Positions 18,701 through 24,700 of a stretch of 64,000 bases of DNA are shown piece by piece. The stretch's first letter is position 1. Every line of letters begins with the position of its first letter. Source of the stretch: Escherichia coli (lineage in GTDB: Bacteria; Pseudomonadota; Gammaproteobacteria; Enterobacterales; Enterobacteriaceae); NCBI RefSeq assembly GCF_050920415.1, contig NZ_CP169309.1; one strand, 5' to 3'. Made by a program: the position numbers.

Positions 18701-21700
18701 GGTCGTGTACTTCACTGAATCGCCACCGCCGCCCATCATCAGGCCGCGTGCTTCCTCCAGAAAATTCAGGAACTGGCAAAACTCAATAACCGGATCCGTC
18801 TGTTGCTTTATTGCCAGTGCTTCATCACCGTCACGCTGTTCAATGAGTAAAGCCCGTGCCTTTTCAGGGTCGGCAAAGTTCGCCAGCAAGCGGCGGATAA
18901 TGACAGGGATTTCAGCCGCGATCTTTTCCGGTAGCTCCCTGTCTTTTTCTGCCTCGCTTACGATGTTATCGAACCGGAATATCACCCGACGACGTGCCAC
19001 ACCTCCGGCCCGTTCGGTGAATATCATCGGATTGTTATTGGTTGCCAGCACCACCGCCCTGATTACCGCCGTAAAACGCTTTTCATATTTCGGGTTAATT
19101 TCCACGGGGTCGCCGCCCGTGATTTTCTTGATGCCCGTTCCTTCGCCTGTATATTTCTGCTGGTCTGCCAGGACGATAAGACGACTCCCGACAACCTGCG
19201 CACGCCCACCAGCATCATCAAGCGATGTCATTTCAGCGCTTACCGTGTTTTGTTTCCCTGCCAGAAGGCTGGCTATGTGTGTGAATGTACTTTTACCGCT
19301 CCCGCCGTCTCCGGTGGCCTCAATAAACATCTGCCAGTCGTACCGGTTCGCCATAATCATGTACAGCGCGGCACATATACGCATCATCTTGCTCGGGTCT
19401 TTTCCGGCTGCGTGCTCAAGCCATTTATGAAAGTTTGGCGCGTTATCGCGGATGTTCTCCCCGGGTGCTGGTGGCGTGTACTCAATGCCGTTGTGCGTGG
19501 TGATCCAGTTCTCCGGCGTGTGCGGGGAAAATTCCCCCGTTTTCAGGTCAAGCGCACCATTGGCGAACGGCAGCAAATCGCCGGACGGCTCGCCCATTGG
19601 TTCGGCAATAACTTTTAACGCTTCCACGGCGTTATTGATTACGCGCTTGCTGAAAGTGGCCCTGTGCTCTGAATAGATAGCCACCATTTCGCGGCTCAGC
19701 TCCATTGTGCTGACCGGACACCATACCCCGCCGCGCCATACGTGAACGATTTCACTTTCAGGATGCACACAAACGCCATCAAAGCGCTCGGCAAGCAGCT
19801 GCGCGCGCTCACTGTCTGCCATTTGTGCCAGTTGCGTATTTTTCTGCTCCGGCATGGTAAGCCCTGCGGCAATATTTTCACGCTCAGCATTCAGATAGCG
19901 CCGCCAGTTTTCACACTTCTGGACGTGCATTCCTTCGGGGTAAAAATTTGCGTCCTGAATATCTGCCGCCGCCAGCTTCTGACCAATCTTTTTGGTCTCC
20001 ACCAAATCCAGTTCTCCGGCCTGGTACAGCCTTACGCGCTTTTTCCCATCCGGAACAATTTTCAGTGCATCAAGTTCGGCAAGCTGATTTGGCCCAAGCC
20101 ACACAGGCGGCACATTATCGCCGGATGCGGGGCCATCCTGCTCCTGCCATTGTTTCGCGTGCGACCAGGCATCACTACCCGCGAAAATAATTACCTCTGT
20201 GTCTTTGTGTTTTATTCCGCGTGGCTGTTTTTTTACGTTCGGTGCCAGTTTCATTTTTTACCCCTGAATACGTTAAGCATCTTTTTTATTTCCTGAATAT
20301 TGGCGCGTGCTTTCTCCCTGCTGGTTGGTTTACTGCGGGGCGCTGCCTGTACCAGAGAAAAATCACGCCGAAACTGATAAACAGGCATCACGCAATCATA
20401 TTCGTAGCCTTCACGACGGTAGGTGATGCGCCGTTCTGCCACGCCTTTAATCGTTACCATGCCGCCATATTTATCGCGGTAAATATCGCCGCGCGTAAAT
20501 TTAGGGTGAGTGTTGCCACTAGCAGTTAAGCCAGAAATTTTCTTTTTCATGGTTTTTATTCCGCGTTTATTTTTTATCGTGAATTTCGATCGCTTTATTT
20601 AATTCGGTGATTACCGTATCGAGTAATGAAATAAACGCACCAGCAAGATTAGATTCACGTTCACCTTCCGGCGCATCACTTAAACCATCAAGCCAGATAA
20701 GCAATATTTGCCGCAAGCATTCACTGTTAGTCAGTGCGTTTTCTGCATGGCTCATTAATTTAAAATAACGGTCATCATGCATGGTGCGCCCCTTGAATAT
20801 CTGCGGTAAGAATTTTGCCTGCCTCATTCAGCGCCATATCAGCACTAAGTTGCATAACCGCCAGCGAATGAGGAACGAAAGCCCCTGCATATTCTGTTTC
20901 ACTGGTGGCGTGCTTATGCGCCATGTCAGCAATAACAGAAATATCAATAAGCGCATCCATCAGCGTTTTGATGGCTTCGGCGGCTGCGTCCGGACGGGGG
21001 TTATTGCACATGGCGCACCTCCTGACGAATACGGGCGGCGAATACCATCACGCAGCCAGCCGGGGATTGCTGGCGGGCTTCCTGTTCGCTGGTGGCCTCG
21101 ATGGTAATCACGCGCGGTTGTGCCGTGCTCAGGGCGATAAAACGCCAGATGTATTTATTCAGGTTGTGCGAATCCCGCCCTTGCGGGTGTGTGGTATGAT
21201 TTCTCATAGCTGCCTCGATACTCTTTCTATCGTTGGTGGTTAGACGCCCTGCATGTGTGCCACCACTGCGGGGCGTTGCGTTTTTTGATGCACACGTGTT
21301 AAGGTGTACACCTACAAAGCAAAAACATAACGCCATAGGTGTACACATGTCAACAGTTATTAAGCGCGATAAAAAACAAAAAGGCACAGGAAAGACCCCA
21401 CCGTTCCATATGCGTATAGTTCCTGAATTGAAGGAGCAGTTTGATAACGAAGCCAGTAACGATGGAGTAAGTCTTGCCAACTGGCTTAAAGAGTTGGGGC
21501 GCGCCGAACTAAAGCGACGCGGCATTGAACCTAAAGGCTGATGTATGACCGATAACAAACTTTCTCTAACAGAGAATAAACCATCAGGCTTCTTACCAAG
21601 AAAAATCCTTGATGAGATCAAACGCCGCCAGCGTAAAAAATCCAAAGGAGCAGACACGGAATAGCTTATGCAACAAATACCATACTGGCTTGGCTCTCTG

Positions 21701-24700
21701 TTTGTATTTGCATTTCTCATGAAATATTGCATTAGCAATGAACTTGTCGGTAATGAAAGTGCATGCGCGAGCGCTGAAAAAAATATTCCACTTCTCGTAT
21801 ATGAAAACGAAAGCCCTGTGAACCGCAATTGAGCGAAATTTAATGAATTCACTCTTTGCCCACCAGCCGCAAATGTGGCATTGTTGGCGATGCTCATGCG
21901 TTGGGGATAACGTGTAGCTTGTGTCGAAGGGCCATCGTGACAGGTGGCCTTTTCTTTACCTGTTATCTGGCAATTGTGGCGCTTCGTCACACGGTTGATA
22001 TAATTCCCCTGCACTGATCCATTTTTTTCGCAGCAGGTTAATTGTTCGCAAGGGCGCTCCGGCAACGGGGCGCTTTTTGTTATGTTCATCACGTTACGCC
22101 TCACACCATTACGCAGCCGTTCCGCGCGCTTCTTCCTCGCGCTCTTTCAGCCAGGCCAGCACTTCATCTTCATACCAGCCAACACGACGCAGACCGATTT
22201 TGAAGCCTTTCGGAAATTTTCCGGCGTTGATCATGTCCTGTAGCGAACTGTCTGCCTTGATGCGCAGAATATTTTTTACTTCCTGACGGGTAAGAATTTT
22301 TCTGATTGTTTCCACTATGTTTTACCTCGTTAATCCGGCGTATTCCGGTGATAAATACGGTAAAACAGGGCAGGGCGGGAAAAACAGTACCCACCGTTTT
22401 AAAACGGTACCCACTGTTTTTTATCTTATTGATTACGCTTTTCTTTCTGCAAAAAAATAGCGACCGCAAGGGGCCGCTATTGTGATTACCGTTTCCACTT
22501 CTTAGGTCGCCCACCGCATTTAAGGCTGGTGGGCCTCAGCACCTTGTCGATGCTTTCAGCCAGATTTTTCGATGCGCCACGCGAGCGCAAAAAACTGACT
22601 ACCTCGTGTTTTGTGGGGGCAGTTGATTTGTCTTCCGGATCGTACGTTGACCAGAATTCACGATTTGCCATTAAGGCCAACTGAAGGCCTTCACCATAGG
22701 CAGGGGATACCTTTTCATTGAAAAACACTCGGATAACTCCTTGAATTTCAAGAGTCGGGTCTCTCTGTATATGGTGATTATACGATGGTTTAGCATGGTT
22801 TGCATCGCTTTTACTGGTTTTTTGTACAGTTATACGGCACGGATACCCCTTTTACCACTGGCTATGGTCACTCCGGTTGCTGCGGCCTCTACAAATTCCC
22901 CCCACCAGCGCATAAGCACCACGCGCTTTTCCAGGTAGTTACTTCGGTTATATGCTCGCCTTACCTCGTTCGTGTCCACGTGTGCGAGTGCGGCCTCGAT
23001 TACGTCCGGCTCGAATCCTTCCTCGTTCGCTGCTGTGCTGAATATGGCGCGTAATCCATGAGACACCAGCACGCCAGCGAATCCCATTCGCCGCAATGCT
23101 GCGTTGGCGGTCTGGCTGTTCATAGGCTGCCGTGGGTCTTTCAGGCTAGGGAAAACGTGCTCGCGGTGGTGGCTGATTGGCTTCATGGCCTCCAGTACCG
23201 CCATAGCCTGACTACAAAGCGGGATAACGTGATCACGCCGCATCTTCATGCGTCCGGCGGGGATCGTCCATTGTTGCGCGTCCATGTCGATTTCTTCCCA
23301 GCGTGCTGACGATGCTTCAACCGGACGGGTTACAGTCAGTAGCTGCCATTCAATCAGTAATCTGGTCTGCCGTTCTGTTGCTGATACGGATAAAGCCTGC
23401 ATAAGCTCCGGCAACTGTTCGGGGCGGATTGTTGGCATATGTTTTTTTACAGGGGAGGGGAACGCCTTACGCACATTCATAGCCGGATTGGCATCAATCA
23501 GCCCACTGTTGGCGGCGTAATCCATTACCTCATTAACGCGCTGTAAAACCCGCTTGAGTGTTTCCAGGTTGCCGCGCTCCTTGATGGGTGTAAGCACCTC
23601 AACGAACCTTCGGGCAGTGAGGGTATCTATTGGCGTGTTGCCGATGAACGGGAATACATATTTATCCAGCGAACGCCAGATGTCTTTAATCGTGTTGGGG
23701 GCCAGATTCTGGCTGATTTTCACCTGGTACCATGCCGCCGCCACATTTTCGAACGTGTTCCCTTGTCTTCGGGCCTCTGCCTCTCGTTTTTTCTTCTCAT
23801 GGTCCTGCGGGTCAGTTCCGGCACTGATTAACGTCCTGTACTCGCTACGGCGTTTTCTGGCATCAGCCAGGGAAACATCTTCAAGAGATCCAAAACTCAG
23901 CAATATTCTTTTTTTGTCCGATGGTCGGTAGTAGGAAAATCGCCAGAGTTTTGATCCGGACGGTTTTACCAGGAGAAAAAGCCCACCGCCGTCCTGTAGG
24001 GTGTACTCCTTTTGCGCTGGTCTGGCTGCTTTGATCTGCACTGTGGTTAATGGGGGTGTTTTTCTCGCCATATGTCTATGATTCCACACGAAAAAACAGG
24101 GTTTTAGTTATACGGCTTTAGTTATACGCCAGCCCGTATAACTAAACGTATAACTAAAAAATCCGGCTGATAGCTTATAAATCCGGTGATGTTCGGTGAC
24201 TAAAAACCATAAAAAAACCCGCCAATCAAGTGATTAGCGGGTTATCCCTGTCTTATTCGGTGCTTTCCGGTGATATCCGGTGGGCGATTTGGTCGGCACG
24301 AGAGGATTTGAACCTCCGACCCCCGACACCCCATGACGGTGCGCTACCAGGCTGCGCTACGTGCCGACTCGTGGCTGCTAATACTACCGTTTTCCACAAC
24401 GAATGCAAGTAAGATATTTCGCTAACTGATTTATAATTAATCAGTTAGCGATAAAACGCTTCTCGTCTGTCAGCACCTGCAATAACAAACTTAACTGTGG
24501 TTTTTCATCTTTCACTCTTTCACCACGTAAGTTGTAAGTACGGTATTTACCGTTATTGTTCAGCACCAGCGTCTTTTTCGGGGTGGTAATTGCCAGCGTA
24601 TCGTTATCCGCAGCGGTAACCCAGTAATGACGGCGTTGAGGGTTGAACAAATCCTGACCTTGCGAATATTCGCTGGCAGGTGTGCTGACATGTAGCAGGC

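What the first reader, a model, noticed from the sequence alone, without database searches (positions are those of the whole stretch)
21347..21829. RHH gene followed by two tiny unannotated ORFs (40 and 53 aa)
Below the ORF-track threshold, two short ORFs directly follow the RHH gene on the plus strand: a highly basic 40-aa peptide and a 53-aa peptide with a hydrophobic N-terminal stretch. RHH proteins frequently serve as antitoxins or repressors paired with small toxic or regulatory peptides, so this could be a small addiction or anti-helper module. The evidence is weak because the ORFs are short.
Basis: inference. Interest (0 to 1): 0.45.

Follow-up and report, generated by a model that had tools for sequence, protein, structure and literature searches.

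The report
Satellite repressor operon with two mini-genes
The three small genes are real: an Arc-type repressor and two conserved mini-proteins in the swappable control cassette of a phage-parasitic island in E. coli; they do not look like a toxin-antitoxin pair, and they lie antisense inside a long leader reading frame of the island's replication operon.

Summary
RHH is 21347-21541 (64 aa), ORF39 is 21545-21664 and ORF54 is 21668-21832. All three share one reading frame and are joined by "stop + one codon + ATG".

The setting is an 11-kb EcCICFT073-type phage-inducible island (PICI) at tRNA-Pro. The genes sit between alpA and the Icd-like/primase operon.

- **RHH:** an Arc-type repressor. Two 12-bp palindromes upstream co-vary with its beta-strand residues across 29 homologues. 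They overlap a leftward promoter facing the replication operon.
- **ORF39:** a conserved 39-43 aa family in Escherichia, Citrobacter and Salmonella, under purifying selection. It matches the C-terminal helix and basic tail of YlcI/YnfO proteins.
- **ORF54:** a conserved 47-54 aa peptide with one hydrophobic helix and two conserved cysteines. It also occurs behind YlcI/YnfO genes.

A toxin-antitoxin reading is not supported. No toxin family matches, the closest RHH relatives lack both mini-genes, and the pieces reassort. In other genera the same RHH heads defence-type cargo.

Unexpectedly, the cassette lies antisense inside a roughly 360-codon stop-free frame running from alpA into the Icd-like gene. 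This resembles P4 eta. The functions of the two mini-proteins remain unknown.

The parts
21302..21313 (.). Operator O1, the palindrome AGGTGTACACCT
   Evidence: A 12-bp perfect palindrome 45 bp upstream of the RHH ATG. A matching site at the same position lies upstream of all 29 RHH homologues examined, and its central bases co-vary with the RHH beta-strand residues.
21337..21348 (.). Operator O2, AGGTGTACACAT. It includes the RHH Shine-Dalgarno sequence (AGGTG) and abuts the start codon.
   Evidence: This is the second copy of the same motif, 35 bp from O1 centre to centre. It lies in the spacer of the predicted leftward promoter.
21324..21353 (-). Predicted sigma-70 promoter pointing left towards the Icd-like/primase operon (-35 TTGACA at 21353-21348, 18-nt spacer, -10 TATGTT at 21329-21324)
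   Evidence: The consensus scan gives 10 of 12 matches. The -35 hexamer is formed by the RHH start (ATG/TTG-TCAA), which is conserved in nearly all homologues. This is a consensus match only and no transcription start has been mapped.
21347..21541 (+). Arc-type ribbon-helix-helix repressor, 64 aa
   Evidence: The family profile matches P22 Arc over Arc residues 2-49 (E=1.3e-3). It also matches PHROG 228 'Arc-like repressor' at 8e-6. The AlphaFold model (pLDDT 78) best matches Arc structures (probability 1.0). The family comprises 26 protein clusters and 26 Enterobacterales loci.
21545..21664 (+). ORF39, a basic mini-protein related to the C-terminal helix and tail of YlcI/YnfO proteins
   Evidence: There are 9 clusters of 41-43 aa in E. 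coli, Citrobacter and Salmonella. pN/pS is 0.18-0.37 in this frame only (Fisher p from 1e-7 to 1.6e-3). Indels are in frame. The junction AAAGGyTGATGTATG is conserved. hhalign against YlcI/YnfO gives probability 97%, E=1e-10, over 28 columns.
21668..21832 (+). ORF54, a mini-protein with an N-terminal hydrophobic helix and two conserved cysteines
   Evidence: Intact homologues are known in L031 (54 aa), L030/P0040 (47 aa) and L036/P0041 (47 aa, profile E=3e-5). pN/pS is 0.45-0.51 (p 0.02-0.05). The junction GGAATaaCTTATG is conserved. No Pfam, PHROG, NCBIfam or PADLOC family matches.
21930..21957 (+). First plus-strand terminator-like hairpin (GGCCAYC...GGTGGCC followed by a T-run)
   Evidence: Read directly from the sequence. 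It is paired in the predicted fold. In L041 a different hairpin with a T-run sits at the same place. In L043 it follows the RHH stop after about 40 nt.
22050..22082 (+). Second plus-strand intrinsic terminator, just before the alpA stop codon
   Evidence: Terminator scan: 12 pairs, 7 of them G-C, then TTTTTGTT. The hairpin is conserved in all seven aligned islands.
21001..22104 (-). Long stop-free minus-strand frame (GTG 22104, ATG 22089 preceded by GAGG). It is antisense to the whole cassette and ends as the Icd-like protein, which has its own ATG at 21207 and a stop at 21003-21001.
   Evidence: Between the Icd-like ATG and the alpA stop there are 0 antisense stop triplets in the Icd phase, against 9 and 20 in the other two phases (P about 8e-6). 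The same pattern holds in 10 of 12 related loci. Only the last 48 residues match a family, NF033153 Icd-like. Third codon positions of the plus-strand genes coincide with third positions of this frame.
22109..22315 (-). alpA-type helix-turn-helix gene. Its stop lies 4 nt upstream of the GTG that opens the long frame.
   Evidence: The identical record annotates it as a helix-turn-helix transcriptional regulator. Homologues carry Pfam Phage_AlpA / HTH_17.
21243..21286 (.). Conserved hairpin with a T-run between the Icd-like start and the cassette. It marks the left boundary of the variable segment.
   Evidence: It is present upstream of almost every RHH homologue from Escherichia to Xenorhabdus. 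It is paired in the fold of the minus-strand leader, whose z-score is -3.0.

Best explanation
Segment 21284-21855 is the exchangeable regulatory and accessory cassette of a Gram-negative phage-inducible chromosomal island (PICI). It lies in the 'dynamic zone' between alpA and the replication genes.

**The RHH (shown by comparison).** Its first gene encodes an Arc-type ribbon-helix-helix repressor. This protein recognises two 12-bp palindromes. O1 lies over the likely -35 of its own promoter. O2 lies over its own ribosome-binding site and start codon, and in the spacer of a leftward promoter that faces the Icd-like/primase operon.

**Its action (inferred).** The protein limits its own operon and holds the leftward promoter off while the island is at rest. 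This mirrors Arc in the P22 immI region.

**The mini-genes (coding status shown, function inferred).** ORF39 and ORF54 are real, translationally coupled passenger genes of this repressor operon. ORF39 is a 39-43 aa basic peptide derived from the helix B and tail of a YlcI/YnfO-type RHH protein. ORF54 is a single-pass membrane peptide. Its acidic, two-cysteine tail probably faces the periplasm. Because they ride behind the repressor, they would be made in the resting island, as rexAB is made behind lambda cI. In other genera the same position holds defence-type genes, so a host-protecting or exclusion role is the best guess for ORF54.

**The antisense frame (pattern shown, mechanism inferred).** The whole cassette is embedded antisense, wobble position to wobble position, in a long leader reading frame. 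That frame starts just after alpA and ends as the Icd-like protein. By analogy with P4 eta, its translation would let AlpA-driven transcripts reach the replication genes.
For: **Context.**
- The identical RefSeq record carries int, alpA-type HTH, Icd-like, DUF4222, primase, a protease/capsid fusion and PerC, next to tRNA-Pro.
- In the E. coli set, 763 of 5426 complete genomes share the flanks, but only 2 share the whole 911-bp segment.
- PMC10111431 describes this zone of PICIs as dynamic.

**RHH.**
- Sequence and structure both match Arc.
- Operator centres co-vary with beta-strand residues in 29 loci. FHMRI goes with GTGTACAC, FKMRI with GTGGCCAC, FRMRI with GTGACCAC, HFKMRI with GGGGCCCC and TFQIRI with ACGTACGT.
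- A leftward promoter is predicted with O2 in its spacer.

**Mini-genes.**
- Both frames are conserved across genera, with in-frame indels.
- pN/pS is below 1 most clearly in their own plus-strand frames. For ORF39 only that frame reaches pN/pS <= 0.37 (p from 1e-7 to 1.6e-3). For ORF54 a stop-containing antisense frame gives a similar value.
- The junctions carry conserved Shine-Dalgarno-like motifs.
- ORF39 is homologous to the YlcI/YnfO tail.

**Passenger logic.** Behind RHH homologues elsewhere lie PDC-S31 (1e-42), a SLATT-like 2TM effector (9e-24), a TIR protein (7e-12) and an HNH protein.

**Antisense frame.**
- Stop-triplet counts by phase show the open frame across loci.
- Recoding the same proteins with host codon usage predicts antisense stops that are not observed.
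- In EcCICFT073, AlpA activates its own promoter and a reporter placed after alpA (PMC6092414).
- The P4 eta/vis mechanism is summarised in PMC10111431.
Against: - There are no expression data, so neither promoter is mapped.
- The plus-strand promoter is weak by consensus and was not reported by the scan.
- ORF54's selection signal is modest (p 0.02-0.05), and a codon-aligned antisense frame gives a similar ratio.
- Neither mini-protein matches any defence model, and neither occurs in 50,697 phage records.
- RHH islands with large cargo genes do not keep the antisense frame open. The leader-translation idea therefore cannot be universal.
- In L039, L042, L043 and L045 the open frame is absent or is not in phase with the Icd-like gene.
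- The homologues are related, so the counts are not independent events.
Confidence: 0.55

Rival explanations
1. Type II toxin-antitoxin or addiction module. The RHH would be the antitoxin and autorepressor, and ORF39 and/or ORF54 would be the toxin that kills cells losing the island.
For: Many type II antitoxins have an RHH fold, and antitoxin structures appear among the weaker structural matches. NCBI names the homologues 'HicB family antitoxin'. The genes are tightly packed in one operon with the regulator first.
Against: No toxin family matches either peptide. The RHH occurs alone in its closest relatives and with unrelated cargo elsewhere. ORF54 pairs with YlcI/YnfO genes and ORF39 pairs with a 60-aa gene. 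The RHH has an N-terminal arm like Arc and ends just after helix B, so it has no C-terminal neutralising extension. The HicB match is marginal (E=0.012) and no HicA is present.
Confidence: 0.07
2. ORF54 is a Hok-like (type I style) membrane toxin. Its expression would be held down by antisense transcription from the alpA side rather than by a protein antitoxin.
For: ORF54 is 54 aa with an N-terminal hydrophobic helix and a tail with conserved cysteines, which is the general build of Hok/Gef peptides (the comparison with Hok is from my own knowledge). The gene is fully overlapped by a minus-strand transcription unit.
Against: There is no match to Pfam Hok_Gef or to any other family. There is no leader ORF or small antisense RNA gene of the mok/sok kind, and Rfam finds nothing here. 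The gene sits in a protein-repressor operon with a conserved Shine-Dalgarno-like motif.
Confidence: 0.08
3. The mini-ORFs are evolutionary leftovers. ORF39 would be the stump of a ylcI/ynfO gene whose 5' half was replaced by the Arc-type gene, and ORF54 its former neighbour. Both would be kept only because the DNA has to stay open on the opposite strand or serve as recombination flank.
For: ORF39 residues 16-43 align with the last 28 residues of YlcI/YnfO. DNA similarity to a ylcI-orf47 locus starts in the middle of ORF39. Relatives of the RHH lack the roughly 390-nt insert. The cassette occurs in only about 0.1-0.4% of complete E. coli genomes.
Against: ORF39 shows clear purifying selection in its own frame across three genera, including its non-YlcI N-terminal part. 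All its indels are in frame. ORF54 is intact at about 35% identity in L036. A requirement for an open antisense frame does not by itself keep the plus-strand frames open.
Confidence: 0.15
4. Only the minus strand is coding here. [quoted passage not shown]
For: The minus-strand frame is stop-free for 367-381 codons. Gene callers annotate it in Citrobacter and Salmonella. A preprint reports such an extended Icd-like protein as the likely cell-death effector of a primase-carrying element in ECOR61 (doi 10.1101/2023.04.06.535777).
Against: The extension's amino-acid sequence changes completely with the cassette. Only the last 48 residues match a family (one locus, L032, adds an Ash domain). The strongest selection signal in the ORF39 region is in the plus frame. 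The RHH is an unmistakable conserved protein with co-varying operators.
Confidence: 0.05
5. ORF39 is a regulatory partner rather than cargo. A free 'helix B plus basic tail' could modulate the RHH, or poison YlcI/YnfO-type repressors of competing islands by forming dead heterodimers.
For: ORF39 carries only the dimerisation helix and tail of a YlcI/YnfO protein. YlcI/YnfO genes occupy the same slot in sister islands. In 4 of the 5 distinct arrangements examined ORF39 sits immediately behind an Arc-type RHH, through a conserved coupled junction.
Against: This is purely inferential. In L031 ORF39 coexists with a full YlcI/YnfO gene in the same cassette, which fits poorly with a poison role. No interaction data exist.
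Confidence: 0.1

Closest known systems
Arc repressor and the immI region of Salmonella phage P22
   Same: Both are small RHH proteins with an N-terminal arm. The family profile aligns to Arc residues 2-49 and Arc is the best structural match. The operators are palindromic and overlap closely spaced promoters on opposite strands. The repressor is the first gene of the operon it limits.
   Different: Sequence similarity is low (about 25% identity, E about 1e-3). There are two separate 12-bp sites 35 bp apart. The genes downstream are two mini-proteins rather than an antirepressor. The host element is a satellite island rather than a phage.
Phage P4 immunity and late-control region (vis, eta/kil, CI RNA)
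   Same: A long reading frame starts just after the alpA/vis homologue and ends in a cell-killing or division-inhibiting product (Kil there, Icd-like here). An internal promoter lies upstream of that product. In P4, translation of the long frame prevents termination so that transcripts reach the replication genes (PMC10111431).
   Different: No C4/CI-type RNA is detected. Instead, a protein repressor operon is encoded on the opposite strand inside the long frame. In this window the frame has no Bro-network domain, although L032 carries a Phage_ASH domain.
Gram-negative PICIs of the EcCICFT073 type and their 'Bro/dynamic zone'
   Same: The order is int, alpA, variable zone, replication zone (Icd-like, DUF4222, primase), then a capsid-related gene and PerC. 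The island is integrated at a tRNA and is about 11 kb (PMC6092414, PMC10111431, PMC11773190).
   Different: Published descriptions stress Bro-N proteins and immunity RNAs in this zone. PMC6092414 states that a global repressor in Gram-negative PICIs is unclear. RHH or YlcI-type repressor cassettes on the opposite strand are not described in the papers I could search.
YlcI/YnfO family (DUF3950) small prophage proteins
   Same: ORF39 shares their last 28 residues. Full-length members occupy the same slot in sister islands and are followed by ORF54 homologues.
   Different: ORF39 lacks the beta-strand and first helix, so it cannot form the RHH-like core. NCBIfam does not assign it to the family.
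Lambda cI-rexA-rexB and other repressor operons with lysogenic-conversion passengers
   Same: The passengers are transcribed with the maintenance repressor in the resting element. One passenger is a membrane protein. In other genera the same slot carries defence-type genes.
   Different: There is no homology to Rex proteins, the passengers are far smaller, and no exclusion phenotype has been tested.

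Membership tests
Arc/MetJ-type ribbon-helix-helix repressors | Beta-strand, helix, helix fold of about 45 residues | tested here: met
   The AlphaFold model (pLDDT 78) has helices at 26-38 and 43-57 after an extended N-terminal segment. The best Foldseek matches are Arc structures 1par and 1myl, with probability 1.0 and TM-score up to 0.87.
Arc/MetJ-type ribbon-helix-helix repressors | Sequence-profile similarity to a characterised member | tested here: met
   The profile of 21 homologues matches P22 Arc at E=1.3e-3 across Arc residues 2-49. PHROG 228 'Arc-like repressor' matches at 7.8e-6.
Arc/MetJ-type ribbon-helix-helix repressors | Palindromic operator read by beta-strand side chains | tested here: met
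   Two palindromes lie upstream of every homologue, and their central bases change together with beta-strand residues 19 and 21. This is comparative evidence only, and binding itself was not measured.
Type II toxin-antitoxin system | Adjacent gene encoding a recognisable toxin | tested here: not met
   ORF39 and ORF54 match nothing in Pfam, NCBIfam, PHROGs or PADLOC.
Type II toxin-antitoxin system | Antitoxin and toxin genes stay paired in homologous loci | tested here: not met
   The RHH occurs alone in L043 and L045. No ORF39/ORF54-like ORF was evident in the 26 loci from other genera (ORF listing inspected). ORF54 and ORF39 also occur behind other genes.
Type II toxin-antitoxin system | Toxicity of one product, neutralised by the other | not testable with these tools
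   This needs expression experiments.
HicAB system (the label NCBI gives to RHH homologues) | A HicA toxin gene, and a HicB with an N-terminal RNase H-like domain | tested here: not met
   The protein is 64 aa, and Pfam HicB matches only at E=0.012 over 29 residues. No HicA-like gene is among the neighbours.
YlcI/YnfO family (for ORF39) | Full-length core of about 59-61 aa | tested here: not met
   Only ORF39 residues 16-43 align, to the last 28 residues of the family. NCBIfam gives no hit.
Hok/Gef type I membrane toxins (for ORF54) | Match to the Hok_Gef family, plus a regulatory antisense RNA and leader ORF | tested here: not met
   Pfam gives no match even at E<=10. Rfam finds no RNA family in 13000-25000 other than the tRNA.
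Gram-negative PICI (EcCICFT073 type) | Integrase, alpA, a primase/replication module and capsid-related gene(s), about 10-15 kb at a specific attachment site | tested here: met
   See the annotation of the identical record and tRNA-Pro at 24290-24366. The island spans roughly 13.4-24.3 kb of the window.
Gram-negative PICI (EcCICFT073 type) | Induction and transfer by a helper phage | not testable with these tools
   This needs an experiment.
P4-type leader-ORF control (vis-eta) | Long ORF immediately downstream of the alpA/vis homologue, running into the killing or division-inhibitor gene | tested here: met
   The frame is open from 22104 to 21001 and starts 4 nt after the alpA stop. The same holds in 10 of 12 related loci.
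P4-type leader-ORF control (vis-eta) | CI/C4-type immunity RNA with seqA-like targets | tested here: not met
   No C4 or isrK match at E<=1 in 13000-25000.
P4-type leader-ORF control (vis-eta) | Translation of the leader ORF prevents transcription termination | not testable with these tools
   This is inferred only from the depletion of stop codons.

The most novel reading that the evidence does not exclude
The 0.9-kb stretch between alpA and the Icd-like gene is coding on both strands. On the plus strand lies a repressor operon: an Arc-type RHH (or YlcI/YnfO in sister islands) plus mini-proteins. On the minus strand lies an eta-like leader frame, with third codon positions facing each other. 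That frame must be translated for AlpA-driven transcripts to reach the replication genes. Protein repression at O1/O2, together with convergent antisense transcription, would then replace the CI RNA of P4 as the immunity switch of this PICI family. This would also supply the 'missing' repressor of Gram-negative PICIs.
Probability: 0.35. Interest if true: 0.7.

Novelty: new variant of a known kind. Interest (0 to 1): 0.5.

Why it matters
- **PICI control.** Gram-negative PICIs are said to lack a known master repressor (PMC6092414). An exchangeable Arc-type or YlcI-type repressor cassette with matched operators, facing the replication operon, would be a candidate immunity determinant. It would also explain why this zone is so variable.
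- **Small proteins.** The work adds two small-protein families (39-43 aa and 47-54 aa) that standard annotation mostly misses.
- **Overlapping genes.** It provides a natural case of long antisense gene overlap. Selection appears to act on synonymous sites to keep the opposite frame open, and this can be tested directly.
- **Defence cargo.** The same RHH heads defence-type cargo in other genera, so the slot is a place to look for new anti-phage genes.

Tried and rejected
**Searches that found nothing**
- Family searches for ORF39 and ORF54 in PHROGs, NCBIfam, PADLOC and Pfam gave no hit.
- tblastn of both peptides against 50,697 phage records gave no match.
- A profile search of 1.84 billion representative proteins with ORF54 found only two relatives. 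No function could be transferred.
- An Rfam scan of the island for C4/isrK or other RNAs found only the tRNA.

**Ideas considered and set aside**
- Lipoprotein reading of ORF54. The residues before the conserved Cys21 are M-K-Y, L-G-N or L-K-S, which is not a canonical lipobox. I rejected it as unsupported.
- Stop-codon read-through fusing the three in-frame ORFs. I considered this because of the 'stop + one codon + ATG' junctions. The shared frame is more simply explained by the phase constraint from the antisense frame.
- Covariation analysis of the conserved plus-strand 3' region. The seven sequences are too similar, with only 1 compensatory pair.

**Errors and limits**
- My first dN/dS run used a wrong RHH start and was discarded. 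I corrected the start.
- The first version of the recoding simulation timed out and was rerun.
- The Cell 2022 paper on PICI immune systems is not in the searchable library. Whether it already maps this slot could not be checked.

Full report
**1. What is in the sequence**

Reading 20700-22500 and listing ORFs shows three consecutive plus-strand ORFs.
- The RHH gene runs from ATG 21347 to TGA 21541 (64 aa; translation checked).
- A 39-aa ORF occupies 21545-21664. It is basic, with 11 K+R against 6 D+E.
- A 54-aa ORF occupies 21668-21832. It has a hydrophobic stretch at about residues 4-18.

All three ORFs are in the same frame. Each junction is a stop, one sense codon and an ATG (GGC-TGA-TGT-ATG and GAA-TAG-CTT-ATG).

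With the local base composition, the joint chance of two such frames in this arrangement is about 7e-7. The segment is AT-richer (GC 0.39-0.46) than the island (0.48) and the window (0.51).

**2. Where it sits**

The window is E. coli chromosome. An island of about 11 kb lies between yejO and tRNA-Pro(GGG)/yejM.

The record NZ_CP013662.1 is 100% identical over the queried 911-bp segment (21200-22110). On the minus strand it annotates:
- an integrase;
- a small hypothetical protein;
- an alpA-type HTH regulator;
- an Icd-like protein, flagged as partial;
- three small proteins, including a DUF4222 protein;
- a primase;
- a ClpP-protease/major-capsid fusion;
- a PerC-family regulator.

The RHH is the only plus-strand gene annotated in the alpA-to-primase region. 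The two mini-ORFs are not annotated.

This gene order is that of Gram-negative phage-inducible chromosomal islands (PICIs) such as EcCICFT073 (PMC6092414, PMC11773190). PMC10111431 divides such islands into integration, 'Bro/dynamic', replication and late zones. The finding lies in the dynamic zone.

In 5426 complete E. coli genomes, 763 share the flanks (21200-21283 and 21856-22110). Only 2 share the whole 911-bp segment. The variable cassette is therefore about 21284-21855, and the RHH itself belongs to it.

**3. The RHH is an Arc-type repressor with identifiable operators**

*The family.* It comprises 26 protein clusters, and 26 loci were recovered from Enterobacterales genomes.

*The Arc match.*
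- A profile of 21 members matches P22 Arc across Arc residues 2-49 (E=1.3e-3).
- PHROG 228 'Arc-like repressor' matches at 8e-6.
- The AlphaFold model (pLDDT 78) has the two helices.
- Its best structural matches are Arc structures.

The 'HicB antitoxin' name that NCBI gives the homologues rests on a marginal domain match (E=0.012).

*The operators.* Upstream of the gene are two copies of a 12-bp palindrome, 35 bp apart:
- O1 is AGGTGTACACCT at 21302-21313.
- O2 is AGGTGTACACAT at 21337-21348. It contains the Shine-Dalgarno sequence and touches the ATG.

The same layout is found upstream of all 29 homologues examined. The centre of the palindrome changes together with the beta-strand residues that correspond to Arc's base-contacting positions:

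| Beta-strand residues | Operator centre |
|---|---|
| PPFHMRI | GTGTACAC |
| PQFKMRI | GTGGCCAC |
| PQFRMRI | GTGACCAC |
| PHFKMRI | GGGGCCCC |
| PTFQIRI | ACGTACGT |
| PIFSVRL / PLFNVRL | GTATGGAC / GTATAGAC types |

This is strong comparative evidence that these are its binding sites.

*The leftward promoter.* A leftward sigma-70-like promoter is predicted with -35 TTGACA at 21353-21348, an 18-nt spacer and -10 TATGTT at 21329-21324 (10 of 12 matches).
- Its -35 is created by the conserved RHH start (ATG/TTG-TCAA).
- O2 fills its spacer.
- O1 lies just downstream of its expected start.

It points at the Icd-like/primase operon. My inference is that the RHH represses this promoter and its own operon, as Arc does in P22 immI. 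No promoter has been mapped experimentally.

**4. ORF39 is a real gene**

*Distribution.* A profile search finds nine clusters of 41-43 aa in E. coli, Citrobacter, Salmonella and metagenomes. Some are annotated by PGAP as hypothetical proteins (WP_000136964.1 and WP_256142062.1).

*Synteny.* In Citrobacter and Salmonella islands the gene again follows an Arc-type RHH through the same AAAGGyTGATGTATG junction.

*Selection.* Pairwise comparisons give pN/pS of 0.18-0.37 in this frame (Fisher p from 1e-7 to 1.6e-3). No comparable signal appears in the other five frames. All indels are in frame, including the 12-nt one that shortens the window copy.

*Origin.* Residues 16-43 are homologous to the last 28 residues of YlcI/YnfO proteins, that is, the second helix and the basic tail (hhalign probability 97%, E=1e-10). 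YlcI/YnfO proteins themselves look RHH-like, and they occupy the same slot in sister islands. DNA similarity to a ylcI-orf47 locus begins in the middle of ORF39.

The simplest history is that an Arc-type gene replaced the 5' half of a ylcI-type gene. The remaining piece acquired a new N-terminus and has since been kept by selection.

**5. ORF54 is probably a real gene**

*Homologues.* Intact homologues exist in four forms:
- L031, 54 aa, 83% identity;
- L030, 47 aa, 64% identity;
- P0040, 47 aa;
- L036/P0041, 47 aa, profile E=3e-5.

In these loci the gene follows ORF39, a 61-aa YlcI/YnfO protein or a 95-aa YlcI/YnfO-like protein.

*Conserved features.* These are the motif Y-W-(L/F)-G, the hydrophobic helix, two cysteines, an E-K pair, and a GGAATaaCTTATG junction with a Shine-Dalgarno-like AAGGA/ACGGA six bases before the ATG.

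*Selection.* pN/pS is 0.45-0.51 (p 0.02-0.05). This is weaker evidence than for ORF39, and a codon-aligned antisense frame that contains stops gives a similar value.

*Negative results.* No family in Pfam, PHROGs, NCBIfam or PADLOC matches, and no phage record contains it. The residues before the first cysteine do not form a canonical lipobox.

*Inference.* It is a single-pass membrane peptide whose acidic, two-cysteine tail faces the periplasm.

**6. Why it is not a toxin-antitoxin module**

- No toxin family is recognisable in either mini-protein.
- The RHH relatives at 92% and 83% identity (L043, L045) have no mini-ORFs. In them the RHH stop is followed after about 40 nt by the same terminator hairpin, so ORF39 and ORF54 form an insert of about 390 nt.
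- In the 26 loci from other genera, no ORF39/ORF54-like ORF was evident in the ORF listing (no tblastn was run).
- In several of those loci the RHH is instead followed by large genes:
  - PDC-S31 (1e-42);
  - a SLATT-like 2TM effector (9e-24);
  - a TIR protein (7e-12), preceded by a 153-aa protein;
  - an HNH protein;
  - a ParA-like ATPase.
- ORF39 and ORF54 also combine with other upstream genes.

The pattern is that of a regulator heading an accessory slot, not an obligate pair. The slot's content elsewhere makes a host-protecting or exclusion role the best guess for ORF54. This is by analogy with cI-rexAB and is not tested.

**7. The opposite strand**

*The open frame.* ORF listing shows a 367-codon minus-strand ORF at 21001-22104. 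It starts 4 nt after the alpA stop, with a GTG at 22104 and an ATG at 22089 preceded by GAGG. It runs antisense through ORF54, ORF39, the RHH and the operators. It ends in frame as the Icd-like protein, which has its own Shine-Dalgarno sequence and an ATG at 21207.

*Stop-triplet counts.*
- In the interval fixed in advance, from the Icd-like ATG to the alpA stop, antisense stop triplets number 0 in this phase against 9 and 20 in the other two (P about 8e-6).
- In 10 of 12 related loci with different cassettes the counts are 0-2 against 12-41.
- Pooled over 16 RHH genes the counts are 4 against 63 and 63.

*Phase.* The open phase is always the one in which third codon positions of the two strands coincide. 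This also explains why all plus-strand genes of a cassette share one frame.

*Recoding test.* I recoded the same proteins with host codon usage and counted antisense stops:

| Gene family | Expected stops | Observed stops |
|---|---|---|
| YlcI/YnfO | 9.0 | 0 |
| ORF54 | 3.3 | 0 |
| ORF39 | 2.3 | 0 |
| RHH | 15.1 | 7 |

*What the frame encodes.* Its amino-acid sequence is not conserved between cassettes. Only the last 48 residues match a family, Icd-like. One locus, L032, adds an Ash domain. What is selected therefore appears to be openness, not a protein sequence.

*Exceptions.* Large cargo genes are not open in antisense. In L039, L042, L043 and L045 the frame is absent or out of phase with the Icd-like gene.

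**8. How this fits known biology**

- In EcCICFT073, AlpA activates its own promoter and a reporter placed after alpA (PMC6092414). Induced transcription therefore enters this region from the alpA side.
- In P4, the long eta frame is translationally coupled to the alpA homologue. Its translation prevents termination so that transcripts reach the replication genes. Kil is a truncated Eta, and a promoter lies inside eta (summarised in PMC10111431).
- The minus-strand frame here matches eta by position, with the Icd-like protein in the place of Kil and the O2-controlled promoter in the place of the internal promoter.
- No CI/C4-type RNA is present.

My inference is that in this PICI family a protein repressor operon, encoded antisense inside the leader frame, takes over the immunity role.

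The plus-strand transcript would also be a long antisense RNA to the leader. Its conserved 3' part (21833-22085) is predicted to be unusually structured on the plus strand (z=-3.8) but not on the minus strand (z=-0.1). It ends in two terminator hairpins.

**9. Verdict**

The finding is a new variant of known satellite control regions. It combines an Arc-type repressor with co-varying operators, two small conserved proteins of unknown function, and an unusual two-strand coding arrangement.

The functions of ORF39 and ORF54 remain open. The experiments under 'decisive next steps' would settle translation, binding, the need for leader translation, and any toxicity or exclusion phenotype.

Noticed in passing
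window 21001-22146, minus strand: A stop-free frame of 367-381 codons runs from just after alpA, antisense through the whole cassette, and ends as the Icd-like protein. The same is seen in 10 of 12 related loci with different cassettes. The third codon positions of the two strands coincide.
   Followed up: yes
window 21856-22081: This non-coding stretch is conserved in several hundred of the 763 E. coli genomes that carry the island flanks, whatever the cassette. The plus-strand RNA is predicted to be unusually structured (z=-3.8) and the minus-strand RNA is not (z=-0.1). It contains two plus-strand terminator hairpins and the motif CCCACCAGCCGCAAATGTGGCATTGTTGG, which is also present in a Citrobacter island (L033).
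   Followed up: partly
window 21243-21286: A hairpin (ACGCCC...GGGGCGT) with a T-run lies between the Icd-like start and the cassette. It is conserved from Escherichia to Xenorhabdus and marks the left edge of the variable segment. It could be a plus-strand terminator or a leader structure of the Icd-like mRNA.
   Followed up: partly
L009, L011, L014, L018, L019, L021, L026 (downstream of the RHH match, about 4200-5400): In other genera the same RHH is followed by large cargo. This includes PDC-S31 (1e-42), a SLATT-like 2TM effector (9e-24), a 153-aa protein plus a TIR protein (7e-12), an HNH protein, a ParA-like ATPase, and unassigned proteins of 395 and 144 aa. The slot behaves like a defence or accessory hotspot.
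   Followed up: partly
L031 1301-1483, L032 1655-1843, L033/L034 3190-3357: Further small plus-strand genes shuffle through the same cassette. One is a 60-62 aa protein (MNDNELIKT...FAPCAFALEKFLKEYR...). Another is a 55-aa lysine/glutamate-rich protein (MPKLKDFLA...). Neither has a family match in PADLOC.
   Followed up: no
window 21001-21252 (L001 8802-9053): PGAP flags the Icd-like gene of the identical record as a pseudogene 'missing N-terminus'. In sister loci it annotates fragments of the antisense frame as partial 'ash family' or 'hypothetical' pseudogenes. These flags are probably side effects of the long open frame.
   Followed up: partly
window 15414-17303 and about 14036-14407, minus strand: The island carries a 629-aa ClpP-like prohead protease/major capsid fusion gene and a PerC-family regulator. 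It has no portal or terminase genes, so it is not a full capsid-forming PICI.
   Followed up: no
L042 1919-2098: A 59-aa 'hypothetical protein' in a sister island at the same tRNA-Pro site is a further Arc-like variant (MSTHKSERRGNPPFQFRLDPDL...GIESKG). Here the antisense frame is open for only 226 codons.
   Followed up: no
window 10782-13376: The yejO autotransporter gene next to the island is an intact 864-aa ORF in this window. In the RefSeq record, identical over the 911-bp query segment, it is flagged as a pseudogene with an internal stop. I did not reconcile the two.
   Followed up: no
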